Shown piece by piece: positions 8,371-23,874 of a DNA stretch of 64,000 nt. The notes under the pieces are model-generated. The model saw nothing but the letters and a program-made list of their open reading frames with translations. It was not told the origin of the DNA and did no database searches. The DNA is taken from NCBI GenBank assembly GCA_951406725.2, contig OX597822.1, forward strand, positions 54,870,001 through 54,934,000, in the 5' to 3' direction. Each line of letters starts with the position of its first letter. Position 1 is the first letter of the stretch. Source of the stretch: Octopus vulgaris (Eukaryota). Both the position numbers and the translations under genes were made by a program.

Positions 8371-11300
8371 ACACATAAAATACAAAATACAAAGTTATAT
8401 CTTGATATCGCTAGTGATAACAATACTCAAAATATATAACAGACTAGAATTGTTAGCCCGTCTCTTGTAATTTCGATCAATTGTATCTTGTCCTCCCTCT
8501 TGTATAGAAGTGTGGCTACAATCCAGCCTACCTCTACTTCGGGGGGGGGGGGAGGGCATTTTAAATTTTTTTCCGGGACGTCCTACGTCCCAGATATAAA
8601 GGTAAAAATAAAATATTTCCATTTTGCAAGTTCGAGTCGAGTACTCCCTTGCACGCTCCGTTGACTCGAACCTTGCTTCTATTGTGGCGAATTTACCGCC
8701 TCTGATTAGATACCTTTCATAGTCGCACCAAGACACTTTTCGAAGGTGCTTTCCTCCATGTGTTTTATTATTACCCACAAGGGGCGAACGTAGAGGGGAC
8801 AATACAATCTGATGTGGGGTCAGATACACGAATGGGTTTTACAAAAAAGCGAATTTTAAGAATTTGCAAAAAATTACAAAAATAGAAAAAAATCGAATGG
8901 AGAACAGACCGGAAGACATTACGGATGGAGTGGGAGCGGGTTTAGCTCGGACCCCACGAGCCCCGCCTCCCCACTGATACTTTGGTTTCGTTTAGTTTTA
9001 CATTTATGTGGTATCATCCACTCGCAACTTTCGTGCTACATCTTTCCATCGTTCTTCATACACTCTCTTAGTCAGGCATATTCTCTCCAGCCCTATCTTC
9101 CTTTTCAGGTGAAAGATGAAATAATTCATCAAACCAGGGCCGGAGATGAACTTGCTTGACTGTAAACCTTTCATTCTCGTCTTCCATATCACCTCTTTCG
9201 CAATTGCTACTACAACGAGAAAACAAATCTTACCTTCTTTCGCGAGGAAATCTGGTGGGTCAATTTTTGTAATAGACTCAGTCGACAGCTGTACTCTTCG
9301 TGTGCTTGACAACAGCAGTTCGGCATAAACCCACACCTCAGACACGTCCGAACAATGAACAATAGCGTGCGGGACGGTTTCCCTATCCCGCTCGCATCTT
9401 GGACATATCGGACTGTCTTGGCCACCGTGCCTTGCGAGTTTATCCCGAACAGGTAGAGCTCCTCTGTAGCATTGCCATGCTAGAGACTTCTGGAAGTTGT
9501 CCAGTGTCTTCGGCTCGAACGTACGTTGGAACAGACTGGCCAGCTGATTATCGTCGAGACCTAGGGTTTCCCCCAAGGTATCTTCACATTCCGCCTCTAC
9601 CAACCCTCTATAGAAGAATGTGGTGGAACCCCCACCGCAGGCGTTGCCCGAGCGACGGAATAGCAGGAGAGCCTTGCGACACTCCGTGTACCATGTGCCT
9701 AGTTTCGATCTACGATTCAGCCAGGTTTCCCATCCACCGAAACTAGTGAACTTGGGAAACATCAGTTTTGCTAGCGGATACCACACCCGTTCACCATCCA
9801 GGTAGAGCCACATATGTCTTAACCTCAGCGCATGTCTGCGCATCATCAGCCAAGGCATCCCTAGCCCACCCTTTAACGGTTGTTGACAGCAAGTAGATCC
9901 GTTTCACAAGTGGTTTCCCGCCCTTCCACAAGAAGTAGAAGAGCTGTCTTTCCAACTTGATCAACCACGAATCAGGGCAAGGAACGACGGAAAGGCGGTA
10001 GGTGATAACCGATGCGATAAACACATTGGCTACCTCCGCCCTCCCTTTCAGGGATAGCCACCGCCAAGACCAGATCTTGGTTACTGCAGCCACCCTGCTC
10101 GATACCTCGCCCCAATTCTTCTCTATTTGGAGGTCTGGACCGAACCAATCCCCTAGCAACTTAATCGGACCCTCCGTCCAACGTCCCACGACGCTGTCAG
10201 GAGGCATCGACTTGCCTCTCCAGGTGCCGAGTTGCAAGCCGACTGACTTTTCGCGATTAACTTTTGCTCCTGTCACCGTCTCGTAAACCTCTATGGCCTT
10301 GCCTACTTTACGTAGGTGGTCCATTTCGGTTACGATGATGGTGATGTCATCCGCGTACGCTGACACCGATTTTCCACTACCTGGCTGTCTCGGGATGCCG
10401 CTCAGTTTTCGCTGTAATGGCTCAAGAGCCATCACGTACAAAAGCGGGGAGAGCGGACACCCTTGACGAACCGAGCGCTTGATGTTGAACGGCTTCGACA
10501 AGAAGCCGTTCACCCGAACTACCGAGTCGATGTTGTCGTAAATTTGGATAATCCACCTGAGGAAGCCAAGGCACAGCCCGAACTGTGCCAGGGCAGATAC
10601 CAGGTAGCGATGGTCGACCCTATCGAATGCTTTAGATTGGTCTAAATGGACCAGTGCCCCACCCTTGCCAGAATCGCTATTAAACCCCTCTATAGTGTAC
10701 CGCATAAGATGGAGATTATCCTGAATGGTTCTGCCAGGAACGGCACATGTCTGTGCCTCCCCGATCAGACCATCCGCGACACGCGCCAATCTTTTCGATA
10801 ACACTTTGGCCAAAATCTTCAACTCTGTGTTTAGCAGAGTGATGGGCCTGAAATTATCAATGCACTCCCCCTTGCTCGGGTCCTTTCTGACGAGTGTCAC
10901 TACTCCCCGGCGCACAGATCTGGGTATGAGCCCGTTCTGCTGCCAGTTCGCATAGACCTCCGCCAGTAGGTACCCGAACAAGTCTGACATACTCTTATAT
11001 AACTCATAGGGTAGACCATCTAAACCCGGCGCCTTGCCCGCGCCGCAGTCCGCCATCGCCTCAACCACCTCCCCAGGCGTGATTGGCCCTTCACAGCCCT
11101 CCGCATCTCGCCCCGATAAGCGCGGCAGCCCGTCGAAGAGGTCCGTAAAGGCCCTCCTCCTATCCAGTCCGCCGCACTCACCGAAAAGCTGAGCGAAGTG
11201 CTCCTGAAAGGCCTCACACATCTCCTCGGGCTCGTTTATCAACTCACCTTGTTGGTTCGTCATAGATCGAATCGTGGCATCGTTACCACGCTGAGCTTCC

Positions 11301-11396
11301 ACCACTCGGGCCCATCTCACGGCGTTGATTCCTTCACAACCCATTGCGCGGATCCTAGCCCTGACAATGCAGCCCATGTGTTTGGCCTCGAGGTGC
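8370..11396 (-). mobile_element. 5'-truncated Tx1/L1-clade non-LTR retrotransposon (ORF2 3' part plus 3' UTR)
   Basis: RT and C-terminal zinc finger ORFs; GC-richer than flanks; presumed 3' UTR ends against a (TA)n tract. Confidence 0.85.
9004..11396 (-). pseudogene. LINE ORF2 reverse transcriptase plus zf-RVT domain; one frameshift near 9890; endonuclease domain absent
   Basis: Motifs APGLDGL, NFRPITLLN, LDQSKAFDRV, VRQGCPLSPLL, SAYADDIT (ORF 9791-11377); CPRC..ETVPHAIVHC (ORF 9004-9858). Confidence 0.92.
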
Positions 11397-12747
11397 TGGT
11401 TCCTTATACTTCGGGATCAATCTCGATAGCCTGTCCACATGTCCCAAATTCTTCGATTGTAATCGATTGGCTGTATATGTGGGGACGGTGATCTGTCTGT
11501 AAGGTAAATTTTCTGCCGTGCAAGAATTTATGAAATCTCTTCACTGCAAAGGTAATGGCTAGTATCTCTTTCTCTATCTGGCTGTAATTTTTTCCGCCGA
11601 TAGTAATGCACGTAACACATGTGCGATCGGTTTTTACGTTACCATTACCCAACTTATGTAGGATTACTGCTCCGACACCAGACTCGTTAGCATCTGATGC
11701 TACAATTATTTTTAGCTTCGGATTAAAATATGCTAGAGATAGCTCTGACGTTAACATCTTTTTAATCACTCTCTTCGAATGCTTTTTAGCATTCGTCAGT
11801 CCAAAACGATTTCACATCTTTTACAGCAGTTTGTTTAAAGGTGCTCTTAGCTCATGCATTCTTGGAATATACATTTGATAGTAATTCGAAAGACCTAGAA
11901 AAGCTTGTAAGGTTGATATATTAGTTGGAAGACGCATATCTTTAATTGCGTCTGCCTTCCATGAGTCCGGTCGTTGTCTATTCCTGTCGGTAATTTGTGC
12001 TAAATACTTAATTTCAGGTAAGAAAAATTCATATTTTTCCTCACTCAATGTGAAACGGTAATCTCTTATTTTTTCAAAAGCACACTTTACTTGCTCGATA
12101 TGCTGATCACGAGATTCACTTTTATTTAATATATCATCCAGGTATGGAAATGCGAATTCAGTCTGCTAATATTGCATCCATAATCTGTTGAAGAATTGCA
12201 GGTGCAATTTTTATTCCGAAAGGAAGTCGGTTAAATTTGTATAACCCTTTGTGCGTGTTTATCGTTAACAGCTTGGAACATTCTTCGTCTATCTGCAGCT
12301 ATAAATAAGCTTCCGATAAATCCAGATTAGAAAGGAGTTTGCCTCCATTAAGCTTGGCAAAAATCTCCTCTGGGCTTGGTAACGGATAGTTATAAGTTTT
12401 CAGACAATCATCAAACCCCGCCGAAAAATCAGCGCAGACCCTTATTTTGTTCTTTTTCTTTTTTTTATGTACACTATTTATGCTACCCATTCGGAATAGT
12501 TTAATCTTTTGTATTACACCAATATTCTCAAGTCTTTTCAATTCTTTTTCTACTTGATTCAGTGCCGCAAAAGGCACAGCTCCCTTTGGTTTAAAAACTG
12601 GAACGGCATTTTCTTTTATGCGGAATTTCACTTTTGTCTTCGTACATGTACCGAGTTTTTCTGAAAAACATCAGGATACATTCTTTTAACTTCATTTTTA
12701 ACTGGCGTGCGACGCATTCACATTATTACAGAAAATACTTATGGACA

Positions 12748-13111
12748 CAACAATTGCAGCGTAGAAGGTGTTTGTATGCCATTTAAGAAACACACAAAAG
12801 CCGTTCGATTCACTTCAACATTTAAGTTTAATTTGTCAAAATATTCTCGTCGCTTTAAGATCGCGACCTGTTCACTGACAAAAATACGTGCTGCATCTGA
12901 GAAAGTAACAGTTAGTTCGTTATATATATGTACAGGTCGCGATCTTAAAGCGACGAAAATATTTTGACAAATTAAACTTAAATGTTGAAGTGAATCGAAC
13001 GGCTTTTGTGTGTTTCTTAAATGGCTTACAAACACCTTTCACGCTGCAATTGTTTTCCTTTCAGCACACGATCTCAGATCAAATCACTTGCTATGCAAGT
13101 ACATCTCCGTA
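12748..13111. mobile_element. Short non-autonomous Penelope-like insertion with 123-bp inverted arms and 11-bp TSD
   Basis: ACTTATGGACA at 12737-12747 and 13112-13122; removing the insert restores Gypsy LWDLSIS|IFCNN; inverted arms 12749-12871 and 12932-13054; hammerhead-like fold in the arm. Confidence 0.75.
12832..12882 (-). ncRNA. Minimal type I hammerhead ribozyme-like motif with G3-C8 core variant
   Basis: TTTGTCA GTGAACA G GTCGC gatcttaaa GCGAC GAG AATATT T TGACAAA: 7-bp helix I, 5-bp stem II, palindromic helix III. The other arm has canonical GAA. Confidence 0.6.
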
Positions 13112-13169
13112 ACTTATGGACAAATCCCACAATTTAAATGTCTCCATCCAATCTGTACCAAACCGATTC

Positions 13170-13944
13170 ATGGTATTTTCTGTAGTAGAAGGACCACACT
13201 TTGCTCTTAAGTGGCCCTTCTGACCATATTTGAAACAACGAGGTTTCCTCCCCTCGACTTGAATTTTCAACACTACTTCACCCACGTGCATCCTATCAGG
13301 GATCTCCTCCAAGTCCCATGGTGTCGCCTGAATCAACATTTCTACGCTCTGCTCTAGCCAGTTCTGTGGGGGCAGATCTAGTGATTTGCAAGATGTTGAT
13401 TTTTTATTTTCATGCTTTGCACAGAACCGTCACCGCTCAGGCGAAGTCTATCTTAGATGGCACTTCTTGCATTTTATCTGGAACATTCTTCGTCCCAGAT
13501 ATGCAGGCAGAAGTACCACCTCGTCTGTCCTTAGGGTCTGTATCGAGTGCTCACAAGCCTTTTCTTCGTTTATGAAACGTACCTACACAGCGGCAAACTT
13601 TTTGCCTCGAGCCATATATGTAATGTCCTTACTGACCCGAGGCATTTTTCGATCTTCTCCACTGGTATATTTTTTATTATTTTATTTTCCAAAGCGTAAG
13701 ATTTGTACACGATTATTTTGTTCGTCCGAATTGTTATTTCACTCGGTGCGGTGATGCGGACGTCTTCTCCGTTCACCGACAACATCCCGTAAAATGCCTG
13801 ATATTCTGTTCTTGGTATCTTCAAAGATCCATTTTGTACTGCGGCTGCCGCTGCAAAGCTAGCTGTACCTACCATATTTGGTACCTCTTCTATAGTCATC
13901 CATTCGTTGATGATTTCAACTGGTATTATAAAACAAATTGGCAT
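13170..13944 (-). pseudogene. Decayed non-LTR retrotransposon ORF1 (gag-like) with CCHC zinc knuckle
   Basis: ..EEIPDRMHVGEVVLKIQVEGRKPRCFKYGQKGHLRAKC (degenerate CX2CX4HX4C preceded by an L1/Tx1 ORF1-type pattern); broken frames. Confidence 0.65.
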
Positions 13945-14640
13945 TTTTTTTCCAAAAAATTAATTCTCTTCAATGGGAATTTAAATAAATTTATCTCGCA
14001 CAAGAGAGGTGAACAGTTCAAATACTGTCGAGGAAGGAACACAATTCAAACAAGCCTGAAACAGGCTACAGTTCATGAAAACAAAGCAGCACGGATTCAA
14101 ATCCTTCCCCTGTAGGTGTAAGCACAGTTTCAACAAAACCCCTACTAAGCAGGCAACAGTTTACAACATTAGTTTTGAAACACCAATACCTTAGTACAAC
14201 CAAAAATCCTCCAAGCGCATATGACACTCTTCTTAAACTGTTCTGCGCATGCTCATTTATACTAATTAGTATAGTTCACTTAGCTAATCACGGAGATGTA
14301 CAGATTCCCCATACAACTGTCTTGTAAGTCATTATCCAATGTATCCTTGAATTCTTTATGACACTGCAGTGTGGTTAGCGGAACATTTGGCTGGTATTTC
14401 TATCAGTCTGAGTGACTGCATATAGATAGTCTCAATTGTTCGAGTTGTGTCTAAGTATGTTAAGATTGGATATAATGTGTGCGTATGTGTGCGATGTGTA
14501 TGATGTATGTATATAAGTATGAGATGTGTGTCTATATGTAAGGTGTATGTATTTATGAGGAATGTGTGTACACGAAATGTGTGTATATATGAAGTGTACA
14601 TATATGTGCGTGGGGTGCGTGTATATATGAGGTGTATATA

Positions 14641-21457: not shown

Positions 21458-23874
21458 CCCTTGGTCTACCTGAGAAAATGAATGTCACTAATTACCAACT
21501 GGGTCTAATGGACTCAATATTTTTCTTTTAATTAAATTTTATTCAAACTACCACTATTTCTTAGCTATATTATATATTCTATCAGGTGAATGAAGAATTA
21601 CCGTTTCTCACAAATTTTAATTAAAAAAAAGATACAACTTACAGAATATAATATAAATCAAAAATTACAAAAATACAGAATCACAGCTCTTCATAAATGT
21701 AGACACCATTGGAATGTTCTTGGCAAACATGGATATTACAATTCTTACATGTAACACAAGTTTTCCTATCTGATTTTTAGGCCACACAAAGAACATCTTC
21801 CTTTTTTCTTTGGCTGAGGAATCTCAAATGAGGCTGAAGATCGTCTTCTTTTCTTGTTTGGTTGAAAAACGTTAGCGGAACTAGAAGATCGTTTATCACT
21901 TTCTTGCTTAGCATTAACTCCAGCAAGCTCCTCTCTTAACTGAATTAGGCACTGTCTTCTTTTATCCTAGAAACTTTGCAAGTGAAGCTGTTTAGCAACA
22001 ATGAAAGCATTCACTGCACTTATATCAATCATGTTGTAGAATATAACCATAGGCCATCTTCGGGTCATTCTTTTGCAAGTGTATGTCCTTACCATCTTAT
22101 CTAGGATATCTACTCCTGCTTTTGTTTTGTTGTAACATGTAATAACTTCAGGTTTCTTTTCAGCACTTTTTGAATCAATTAAAAACTGAGAGTGCATTGT
22201 ACTCATAAGTATGACAGCATAATTTTTCTTGGGACAATAAGATAGGATCATCGAATCCTTTTGAAATCCAAATATTATGCTGTTGATTTCTCTTACTTTT
22301 CCATTTGTGAAATCACTTGGAAGTTCAACTCTGTTCTTTCTAATTGTTCCGACTAAAGTAGTTTTCTTGCTAAGCAGCTTTCGAGCCAATCCTAGACTTG
22401 TAAAAACATTATCACAAATTATATTGCGACCAGTATTTTAAAGTTCTTTTACTAGGTCTTCAACAACTCTTGAGCCTTGTTTTGTCTTTACCCTTTTTAC
22501 TGGGTCTTTTCCAGTGTAGATTTGCATTTTCCAGGCATAAGATGTTTCACTGTCGCATATTGCCCGAATTTTAATTTCATATTTTCCTGGTTTTGAAGGA
22601 ATATGTACCCGGAATGGGCAGCGTCCTCTGAATGAAGCTAATTGTTCATCAGCTGTCATGCATGAACTTGGAACATATCCATCTTGCAAATTTTGATTCC
22701 ACATTTCAAATACTTCTCTTATTGGCTCCAATTTATCATCACTTCTCTTTTTTTCTTCTTGCACTAGCATCATCAAAAACGCAATACTTGTAAAATCTGT
22801 TGAAATCTTCCCCGGCTCATAATTTTGTTGAAGGTAACCACCTTCTTGGCTCCATAACTGTGTGACATTTTCATGTTTAGATTTATAAACACATATAAGA
22901 ATAAACAGTCCAATAAATTTCTTTAGTTCAGAGTGGTCAATTTCCTTCCATTTATCTTTCCGTTTACGAATTACTTCAAGAAGATTCTGGCGCATAAAGA
23001 TAGTAAAACATGTTTGAATGCTATCGCATGACCTTTTAGTAAAACGGGATGGTCTTCATTCTTGGCGCACGATATTGCAAGATGAAGTTCTTACTGCTGC
23101 TTGAGTAAGATGATTAGAATGCCAAATATATCGCTCATTCATAATTGGGTGGCTTGCAGATAATTTTTTTTTTTTAGTATCTTCCTCATCTGATGACACA
23201 GAACCTAAACTGTGCAACATGCAATCACATTCACCATCATCTTCAGATCAATAGAAGGAATAACTGCTATCTTCTTCCCATTCTTCATCTAATTCCAATA
23301 ACCTTTTCAATATTTGGTCTTCACTCAAGTTTTCTCGTCTAGGCATATTGGAAAGCACAACTGAACTATATGAAGCTTGATAGCAGACCAAATGCAGATA
23401 TTGCTCTCTCACATAGTTATACTCTCCTGAAAGATGATGCAATATATTGCAAGGATTGCGTCATCATATAGAAATATTGAATCACCCTATAACCTAGTAG
23501 ATTGAAGGTGATGCATTACCACACAAATTTATAGGAATATTTTCATAATTTTATATAAAATTCAGCAAAGAAATTGAATACAATTTTATCTATTCTATAT
23601 CTGATAAATATCTGTTTAGATATCTGTTTAGAATGACAAAAGTATTGTCTGAATTTAATTCGAGGGTCCAATGGACCCATACGGTAATTGATGTATGAAG
23701 CGGAATTTTCTAGCTTTTATAAACATAGGGAAAATTTCCCATTTGATAGATAAAAGAGAGTCAATAAAAATAAGAGTCACGAGAAATCAGCAGAATCAAA
23801 TAATAGAAACAGTAGGAAAAAGTAACTGAAAAATACTGAAATGGGTCCATTGAACCCATTGGTAGACAGAAGGT
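21458..23874 (-). mobile_element. Full-length decayed piggyBac DNA transposon
   Basis: TTAA at 21454-57 then CCCTTGGTCTACC; right end GGTAGACAGAAGGT then TTAT (decayed TTAA); subterminal GGGTC..TGGAC repeats. Confidence 0.88.
21690..23346 (-). pseudogene. piggyBac (PGBD4-like, DDE_Tnp_1_7) transposase with Cys-rich C terminus; frameshifted
   Basis: CMTADEQLASFRGRCPFRVHIPSKPGKYEIK; RNIICDNVFTS; LVGTIRKNR; YNKTKAGVDILD..RRWPMVIFY; C-terminal CVTCKNCNIHVCQEH. Confidence 0.92.

What the first reader, a model, noticed from the sequence alone, without database searches (positions are those of the whole stretch)
12748..13111. Short fold-back retro-insertion carrying a hammerhead ribozyme with a compensatory G3-C8 core swap
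Seen: a 364-bp ORF-less insert with an 11-bp TSD inside Gypsy pol and 123-bp inverted arms. The minus strand of the left arm reads UUUGUCA-GUGAACA-G-GUCGC(loop)GCGAC-GAG-AAUAUU-U-UGACAAA; the right arm keeps the canonical GAA but has lost its 5' core. Known: the hammerhead core is CUGAnGA..GAAA..UH, C3 and G8 form a tertiary pair whose double swap partly rescues activity, and Penelope-like elements carry minimal type I hammerheads with palindromic helix III that cleave as dimers. Inference: both C3 and G8 are exchanged while helices I-III are intact, which suggests selection on a functional variant ribozyme that CUGAnGA-based searches would miss, in a mobile non-autonomous PLE family.
Basis: partly seen in the sequence, partly recalled or inferred. 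Interest (0 to 1): 0.8.

Follow-up and report, generated by a model that had tools for sequence, protein, structure and literature searches.

The report
Jumping-gene ribozyme with swapped core pair
This 364-base insert is a broken head-to-head fragment of a Penelope-type jumping gene whose thousands of copies carry a hammerhead-shaped RNA with its central C-G pair flipped to G-C, a natural variant predicted, but not tested, to cut itself slowly.

Summary
The insert is real: 364 bp, an 11-bp target duplication (empty Gypsy sites found) and 126-nt inverted arms. It is a head-to-head pair of 5'-truncated copies of a Neptune-type Penelope-like element (PLE). I found the autonomous partner in the same genome (RT plus C-terminal GIY-YIG, 1,025 codons open). 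The minimal type I hammerhead sits in its leader, 92 nt before the ATG. The G3-C8 swap is family-wide: 5,094 exact copies of core plus helix II plus GAAA, and 0 of 100 sampled copies are canonical. Sister PLE lineages have C3-G8 or U3-A8 at the same place, so the swap is derived and keeps the pair. Corrections: neither arm of this copy is intact (left has a private A14G, right lacks its 5' core), and it is not a separate non-autonomous family. Selection for cleavage is only partly supported. About 240 G3·G8 mismatch copies exist, the sister family with intact ORFs carries A9C, and insertions show no pile-up at the cleavage site. Natural U3-A8 and engineered G3-C8 are published; I found no natural G3-C8, but key papers were unavailable. 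The scan once noted an unresolved G3:C8 motif in another genome.

The parts
12737..12747 (+). Left copy of the 11-bp target-site duplication
   Evidence: empty sites in Gypsy paralogues
13112..13122 (+). Right copy of the target-site duplication
12748..13111 (.). Whole insertion: inverted plus direct 5'-truncated copies of a Neptune-type PLE end, joined head to head
12749..12933 (-). Left arm (sense on minus): pLTR end, hammerhead and first ORF codons, ending at the inner RT start site without tail
12899..12933 (-). pLTR sequence upstream of the usual 5' boundary ((TA)n, branch/acceptor-like CTAAC...TTTCTCAG); kept in only 2 of 100 sampled copies
12894..12898 (-). AGATG: commonest 5' boundary of family copies, often preceded by an extra G; inferred capped transcription start
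12832..12882 (-). Left-arm hammerhead: G3 at 12875, C8 at 12870, private A14G at 12846, palindrome AAUAUU 12845-12840, predicted cut between 12839 and 12838
12932..12972 (+). Right-arm hammerhead remnant: helix II, canonical GAAA (12955-12958), helix III and 3' strand of helix I; positions 3-6 and 5' helix I lost at the junction
13021..13111 (+). First 30 codons of the PLE ORF; this frame runs on into the RT ORF in L104 and is homologous to the sister family's N-terminus
13055..13111 (+). 57-nt PLE 'tail' present on one arm only, between the two inferred RT start sites
   Evidence: bimodal 3' ends; concept from PMC8557442 and PMC11167929
11404..12736 (-). Host: decayed Gypsy-type pol (RT motifs, RNase H)
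   Evidence: Pfam RT_RNaseH_2 E 6e-18; RT motifs in translated frames
13123..13182 (-). Last 60 bp of the Gypsy remnant beyond the insertion

Best explanation
The insert is a dead head-to-head pair of truncated copies of a Neptune-type Penelope-like retroelement whose family carries a minimal hammerhead with the 3-8 core pair swapped to G3-C8, predicted to cleave slowly as a dimer and likely kept by weak selection. Shown: the element, its RT+GIY-YIG partner, the family-wide swap, C3-G8 and U3-A8 in relatives, and the broken state of both arms here. Inferred: the endonuclease cut both strands 11 bp apart; RT started at the two PLE start sites 57 nt apart in the ORF's first codons and copied towards the RNA's 5' end; the two cDNAs were joined head to head. 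Most short copies would be complete copies of the first ~200 nt of a capped, uncleaved transcript (extra 5' G), often taken from two different RNA molecules. The ribozyme lies between the inferred cap and the ATG, so cleavage would remove the cap and curb expression or cut tandem precursors; it is not needed for insertion.
For: Partner ORF with RT motifs, CX4CX2C linker, GIY-C-C-YIG and HxxxxH, ending in the same unit; L104 joins the unit to the ORF at its 5' end. 3' ends are bimodal (93 at about 130-154 nt, 126 at 195 nt or more, of 226 units). TSDs of 7-14 bp in 9 of 31 scored ends; 16 of 31 lie in (TA)n. G3 and C8 together in 94 of 100, canonical 0 of 100; 5,094 exact core+helix II+GAAA copies, control 0. 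The sister clade (100 support) has C3-G8 in 94 of 100 and G3 in 0. Outgroups: L250 and L269 C3-G8, L249 U3-A8. Helices I, II and III change in a compensatory way between families. The only common within-family change in the ribozyme is U-A to U·G in helix I. No listed variant at 3 or 8 in contigs of four other organism labels. Extra G in 19 of 23 copies ending at AGAT, p=1e-8. Arms differ in loop II class in 8 of 23 scorable pairs (5 of 23 with a stricter parse). In an Anolis PLE hammerhead the C3G/G8C double mutant partly restores cleavage (PMC11167929).
Against: No cleavage assay. Within-family constraint is not significant: 1 of 38 ribozyme columns polymorphic against 9 of 74 other non-coding columns, p=0.16, on partly core-selected loci. 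About 240 G3·G8 copies outnumber C8>T (about 178), C8>A (about 53) and G3>C (about 35), and some fold-backs carry G8 in both arms, so a mismatched template was mobilised. The sister family with intact ORFs has C9 in 85 of 100 and a broken palindrome. No pile-up of 5' junctions at the cleavage site (3 of 100 in a sample that left out most standard copies). Hammerhead mutants did not affect insertion in vitro (PMC11167929). The cap reading rests on one extra G; a short spliced exon ending in G is not excluded.
Confidence: 0.6

Rival explanations
1. Same element, but the hammerhead is catalytically vestigial. The fold or palindrome is kept as an RNA pairing or protein-binding site, or merely inherited, and G3-C8 arose by drift in a relaxed core.
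For: Excess of G3·G8 copies; A9C in the sister family with intact ORFs; C9 also in L249; no cleavage footprint in insertion ends; within-family test p=0.16; PLE hammerheads are weak in vitro (PMC4209133) and dispensable for insertion (PMC11167929).
Against: The two core changes against the canonical CUGANGA hit exactly the two paired positions with complementary bases; by my arithmetic about 1 in 230 for two random changes among 13 core bases. Three different Watson-Crick pairs occur at 3-8 across the clade. G3-C8 outnumbers G3·G8 about 25-fold.
Confidence: 0.28
2. The short fold-back is its own non-autonomous family (retrozyme- or SINE-like) that is transcribed and copied as a unit by the PLE enzyme.
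For: Short copies far outnumber long ones (7,414 core matches against 221 exact upstream junctions). One tandem array of five units exists (L032). Retrozymes derive from pLTRs (10.64898/2026.07.22.740005).
Against: The centre of the fold-back differs in nearly every copy. Arm lengths run from about 40 nt to kilobases. Arms of one insertion often come from different subfamilies. The same haplotypes flank ORF-bearing copies.
Confidence: 0.09
3. A MITE or foldback DNA transposon, or a miRNA-like hairpin, with a chance hammerhead look-alike.
For: Long inverted arms; Rfam gives only sub-threshold miRNA-precursor hits.
Against: Variable 7-14 bp TSDs, a one-sided tail, solo units, continuity with an RT+GIY-YIG ORF, and canonical hammerheads at the homologous place in sister families.
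Confidence: 0.01

Closest known systems
Minimal type I hammerheads of metazoan PLEs (Cervera & de la Peña 2014, PMC4209133; read parts 1-2 of 4 and searched 2 supplement files, one file not searchable)
   Same: In the pLTR of a PLE; extra base between 9 and 10.1; G10.1-C11.1; palindromic minimal helix III; many solo and opposite-strand copies
   Different: Core is GUGAACA (G3-C8). That paper's consensus is CUGANGA and its one reported core swap is U3-A8 in Schistosoma. The extra base here is G, against H in its consensus.
Natural U3-A8 hammerheads (Perreault et al. 2011, PMC3088659; read section 8 and passages)
   Same: Watson-Crick covariation at 3-8 in nature
   Different: Only U3-A8 is named there; G3-C8 is not mentioned in the passages read
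PAc (Poseidon, Anolis) PLE and its engineered C3G/G8C hammerhead (PMC11167929; read main text part 2 and passages)
   Same: Two internal RT start sites that define a tail; AT-rich targets; hammerhead near the ORF start; double swap partly active
   Different: PAc is Poseidon and its swap is engineered. Its hammerhead overlaps the start codon; here it lies 92 nt upstream. The tail here is 57 nt against the usual 30-40.
Neptune-clade EN+ PLEs (PMC8557442; passages)
   Same: RT followed by C-terminal GIY-YIG, CX2-5CxxC linker, CCHH, pLTRs, inverted 5'-truncated copy, one-sided tail, microsatellite targeting
   Different: DKG motif reads DKS. Placement against named Neptune or Nematis references was not tested.
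Non-LTR retrozymes (10.64898/2026.07.22.740005; read part 1 of 5 and passages)
   Same: Short pLTR-derived units with a type I hammerhead
   Different: Mostly solo or head-to-head rather than tandem; includes ORF start codons; no evidence here for circles

Membership tests
EN+ Penelope-like element | Single ORF with RT and C-terminal GIY-YIG endonuclease linked to this end | tested here: met
   L105 1,025 aa open with RT motifs and GIY-YIG; Pfam GIY-YIG E 4.6e-4, below its cut-off
EN+ Penelope-like element | pLTR repeated at both ends, inverted 5'-truncated copy, one-sided tail, variable TSD | tested here: met
Neptune clade | CX2-5CxxC linker plus CCHH endonuclease at the C-terminus | tested here: met
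   motifs at aa 871, 892 and 940 of L105; definitions from PMC8557442
Neptune clade | RT phylogeny groups with named Neptune elements rather than Nematis | not tested
   The tree holds no named reference
Minimal type I hammerhead (PLE type) | C3 and G8 literally (CUGANGA) | tested here: not met
   0 of 100 canonical; filed as a variant, not a canonical member
Minimal type I hammerhead (PLE type) | Watson-Crick pair between 3 and 8 | tested here: met
   G3-C8 in 94 of 100
Minimal type I hammerhead (PLE type) | U4 G5 A6 A9, G12 A13 A14 A15.1, U16.1 H17, G10.1-C11.1, helices I and II, palindromic helix III, in the family | tested here: met
   each position 89-99.5% in 204 units; 5,094 exact copies; fold
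Minimal type I hammerhead (PLE type) | The same features in this window's copy | tested here: not met
   left arm A14G, right arm lacks its 5' core
Minimal type I hammerhead (PLE type) | Self-cleavage 3' of H17 as a dimer | not testable with these tools
   no raw RNA reads offered; needs an assay
Rfam hammerhead models | Covariance-model hit | tested here: inconclusive
   No hit in the window or in L035, but none in canonical relatives L151, L174, L250, L269 either, so the miss is not due to the swap
Non-LTR retrozyme | Head-to-tail tandem units each with a hammerhead | tested here: not met
   This insert is head to head; tandem arrays are a minority (e.g. L032)
Non-LTR retrozyme | Circular RNA intermediate | not testable with these tools
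   only contigs of runs guessed to be RNA

The most novel reading that the evidence does not exclude
This PLE family holds the first natural, selected G3-C8 hammerhead. It was reached from C3-G8 through a G3·G8 stage whose copies are still in the genome, and its palindromic helix III pairs two capped leader RNAs so that one RT complex inserts them together as a head-to-head pair.
Probability: 0.25. Interest if true: 0.72.

Novelty: new variant of a known kind. Interest (0 to 1): 0.47.

Why it matters
A G3-C8 core has been seen working in engineered ribozymes; a natural family of over 5,000 intact copies would complete the natural 3-8 covariation set, and CUGANGA descriptors would miss it. One genome also offers matched natural controls (C3-G8, G3·G8, G3-C8 and A9C in sister PLE lineages). 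That makes an open question directly testable: whether PLE hammerheads need to cleave at all, and whether their palindrome pairs two template RNAs. The element type and the insertion itself are ordinary.

Tried and rejected
Coding constraint on the core: a 70-codon open frame runs through the unit in some copies, but it is broken in the ORF-linked subfamily and the true ORF starts 92 nt downstream; rejected. A small MITE around the insert (15-nt inverted repeat): rejected, the flanks are continuous Gypsy sequence in five paralogues. A clean basal G3·G8 clade: not found; 26 G8 rows of 107 need 20 changes against 23.6 for shuffles (5 of 300 as low), so only weak clustering towards older copies. 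Rfam: no hammerhead hit, also none in canonical relatives. Expression: no RNA holder listed; the runs are contigs guessed to be RNA and showed no splice joint or shared end, which is no evidence either way. One search was flawed: its first letter excluded most standard copies, so it gives only a rough upper figure for junctions at the cleavage site. Of 72 metagenome loci I scanned the first 26; three gave a hammerhead. Literature on natural G3-C8: searches found none; one search found no octopus PLE hammerhead study. PMC5785218 (Lünse et al.) and PMC3334697 (Hammann et al.) are not held, and Seehafer 2011 and Przybilski & Hammann 2007 were seen only as references; any of them may already list it.

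Full report
Observation. The 364-bp insert at 12748-13111 lies between two copies of ACTTATGGACA and has 126-nt arms that are 96% complementary. Five paralogous Gypsy loci carry the flanks joined with one copy of that region, so the duplication is real. The host is a decayed Gypsy-type pol on the minus strand (RT motifs). Its GAG is A14G, private to this arm in the alignment, and the right arm starts inside the core. A descriptor allowing any Watson-Crick 3-8 pair finds no intact motif in the window. This copy is dead; the question is the family.

Family and partner. The insert has 2,754 candidates in the 2.8-Gb genome, 40 scored. Copies occur as solo units of about 200 nt, head-to-head pairs, a few tandems, and long inverted pairs. 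[quoted passage not shown] That is the Neptune layout in PMC8557442; I did not test it against named references. L105 has 1,025 codons open. In L104 the unit's end runs into the ORF, in a frame homologous to the N-terminus of a sister family with intact 1,312-codon frames. So 13021-13111 are the first 30 codons, and the hammerhead lies 92 nt upstream of the ATG, outside the coding frame. The best database hit (58%) is named Octopus vulgaris by its source and is encoded in G000 at 100% identity, so the host is probably an octopus.

How the insert likely formed. 3' ends of 226 units fall at two places (93 at about 130-154 nt, 126 at 195 nt or more). This matches the two internal RT start sites and tail shown for PAc (PMC11167929). 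TSDs of 7-14 bp are visible at 9 of 31 scored ends and 16 of 31 lie in (TA)n. 5' ends cluster at or just 3' of AGATGCAG; only 2 of 100 sampled copies keep the upstream ACTTTCTCAG (counted by hand). Of 23 copies ending exactly at AGAT, 19 have a G before it (p=1e-8 against 25%). I infer copying of a cap, a signature I recall from LINE elements; a short spliced exon ending in G is the alternative. The two arms of one insertion differ in loop II class in 8 of 23 scorable pairs (35 found, 12 unscorable; two of the 8 are one duplicated locus), or 5 of 23 with a stricter parse. One template predicts none and random pairing about 11, so two RNA molecules are probably often used; gene conversion is not excluded. 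Inverted pLTR pairs with TSDs are known (PMC3846280, passages).

The swap. A pattern blind to the core gives 7,414 matches (control 17). Of the first 100, 85 read GTGAACA, 94 have both G3 and C8, and none is canonical (hand count). 5,094 copies match core, helix II and GAAAATA exactly (control 0). Contigs from four other organism labels show no listed variant at either position. The sister clade (support 100) has C3-G8 in 94 of 100 and G3 in none. Its older subfamily has a canonical core and a different palindrome (L150-L152), and a third family (L165, L174, L176) has C3-G8 behind the same helix I strand. Among 26 metagenome loci scanned, L250 and L269 are canonical and L249 is U3-A8. By parsimony G3-C8 is derived from C3-G8. 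Helices change in a compensatory way between families. Position 17 is U, which would avoid the inhibitory G3-C17 pairing implied by a passage in PMC3884650 (inference).

Evidence against strong selection for cleavage. G8 copies number 302; the first 100 are 83 G3, 9 U3, 5 C3 and 3 A3, i.e. about 240 G3·G8. That exceeds C8>T (about 178) and C8>A (about 53) and G3>C (about 35); background C>G is 0.25% in a sample biased to close copies. Four neighbouring opposite-strand pairs have G8 in both arms, while several other pairs are discordant. These copies are more diverged (7.8% against 3.3%) but only weakly clustered (20 changes against 23.6, 5 of 300 shuffles). They may be remnants of an intermediate spread by recombination, or a hotspot. 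Single C3G mutants are inactive in PAc (PMC11167929), so a probably dead template was mobilised. The sister family with intact ORFs has C9 in 85 of 100. Subfamily polymorphism avoids the ribozyme (1 of 38 columns, and that one keeps pairing, against 9 of 74) but not significantly (p=0.16). 5' junctions show no peak at the cleavage site (a flawed sample), which fits uncleaved RNA being the template, as reported in vitro.

Comparison with what is known. Minimal dimeric hammerheads in PLE pLTRs and a natural U3-A8 swap are described (PMC4209133; PMC3088659). Partial rescue by C3G/G8C is described for engineered ribozymes (PMC11167929; PMC8495972, one passage). Searches found no natural G3-C8. Lünse 2017 and Hammann 2012 could not be read, and one supplement of PMC4209133 was not searchable; they may bear on novelty. 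Rfam misses these motifs with or without the swap. An earlier scan note (e1-7353390) describes an unresolved G3:C8 motif with an insertion behind a PLE in another genome; I did not test it.

Verdict. An ordinary PLE insertion product from a family whose hammerhead is a real, derived G3-C8 variant. Activity is untested and the evidence for selection is mixed. New variant of a known kind; interest 0.47.

Noticed in passing
L183-L188 (e.g. L184 2263-6198), L239-L248: A second Neptune-like PLE family with many 99%-identical intact 1,312-codon frames; its hammerhead has A9C and a broken palindrome, while an older subfamily (L150-L152) is canonical. 3,881 pattern matches.
   Followed up: partly
L165, L169, L174, L176; L155; L177, L179: Further PLE-like leader families with C3-G8, U3-G8 or G3·G8 cores behind the same TTGTCA strand.
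   Followed up: partly
L032 1480-2626: Five head-to-tail units separated by (TA)n, a retrozyme-like array; L137 holds a similar cluster.
   Followed up: no
L047 1290-1500: Three tandem 64-nt repeats of just the 5' half of the hammerhead at a fold-back centre.
   Followed up: no
window 12899-12933 (-); L104 1450-1830: Branch-point and acceptor-like sequence directly before the inferred start, after a (TACA)n tract, with a donor-like GTAAG about 320 nt upstream: possible pLTR intron.
   Followed up: partly
L249 2497: Related PLE from a metagenome contig with a U3-A8 core, C9 and the same AUAUAUU-type helix III.
   Followed up: no
L022, L051: Copies with core GTGAGAA (G3·A8), in both arms of L022.
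   Followed up: no
window 9004-11416 (-); 22438-23055 (-); 13183-14200: A LINE-type RT with zf-RVT next to the Gypsy remnant, a piggyBac-like DDE_Tnp_1_7 fragment, and a different repeat with a zinc-knuckle-like frame right of the Gypsy break.
   Followed up: no
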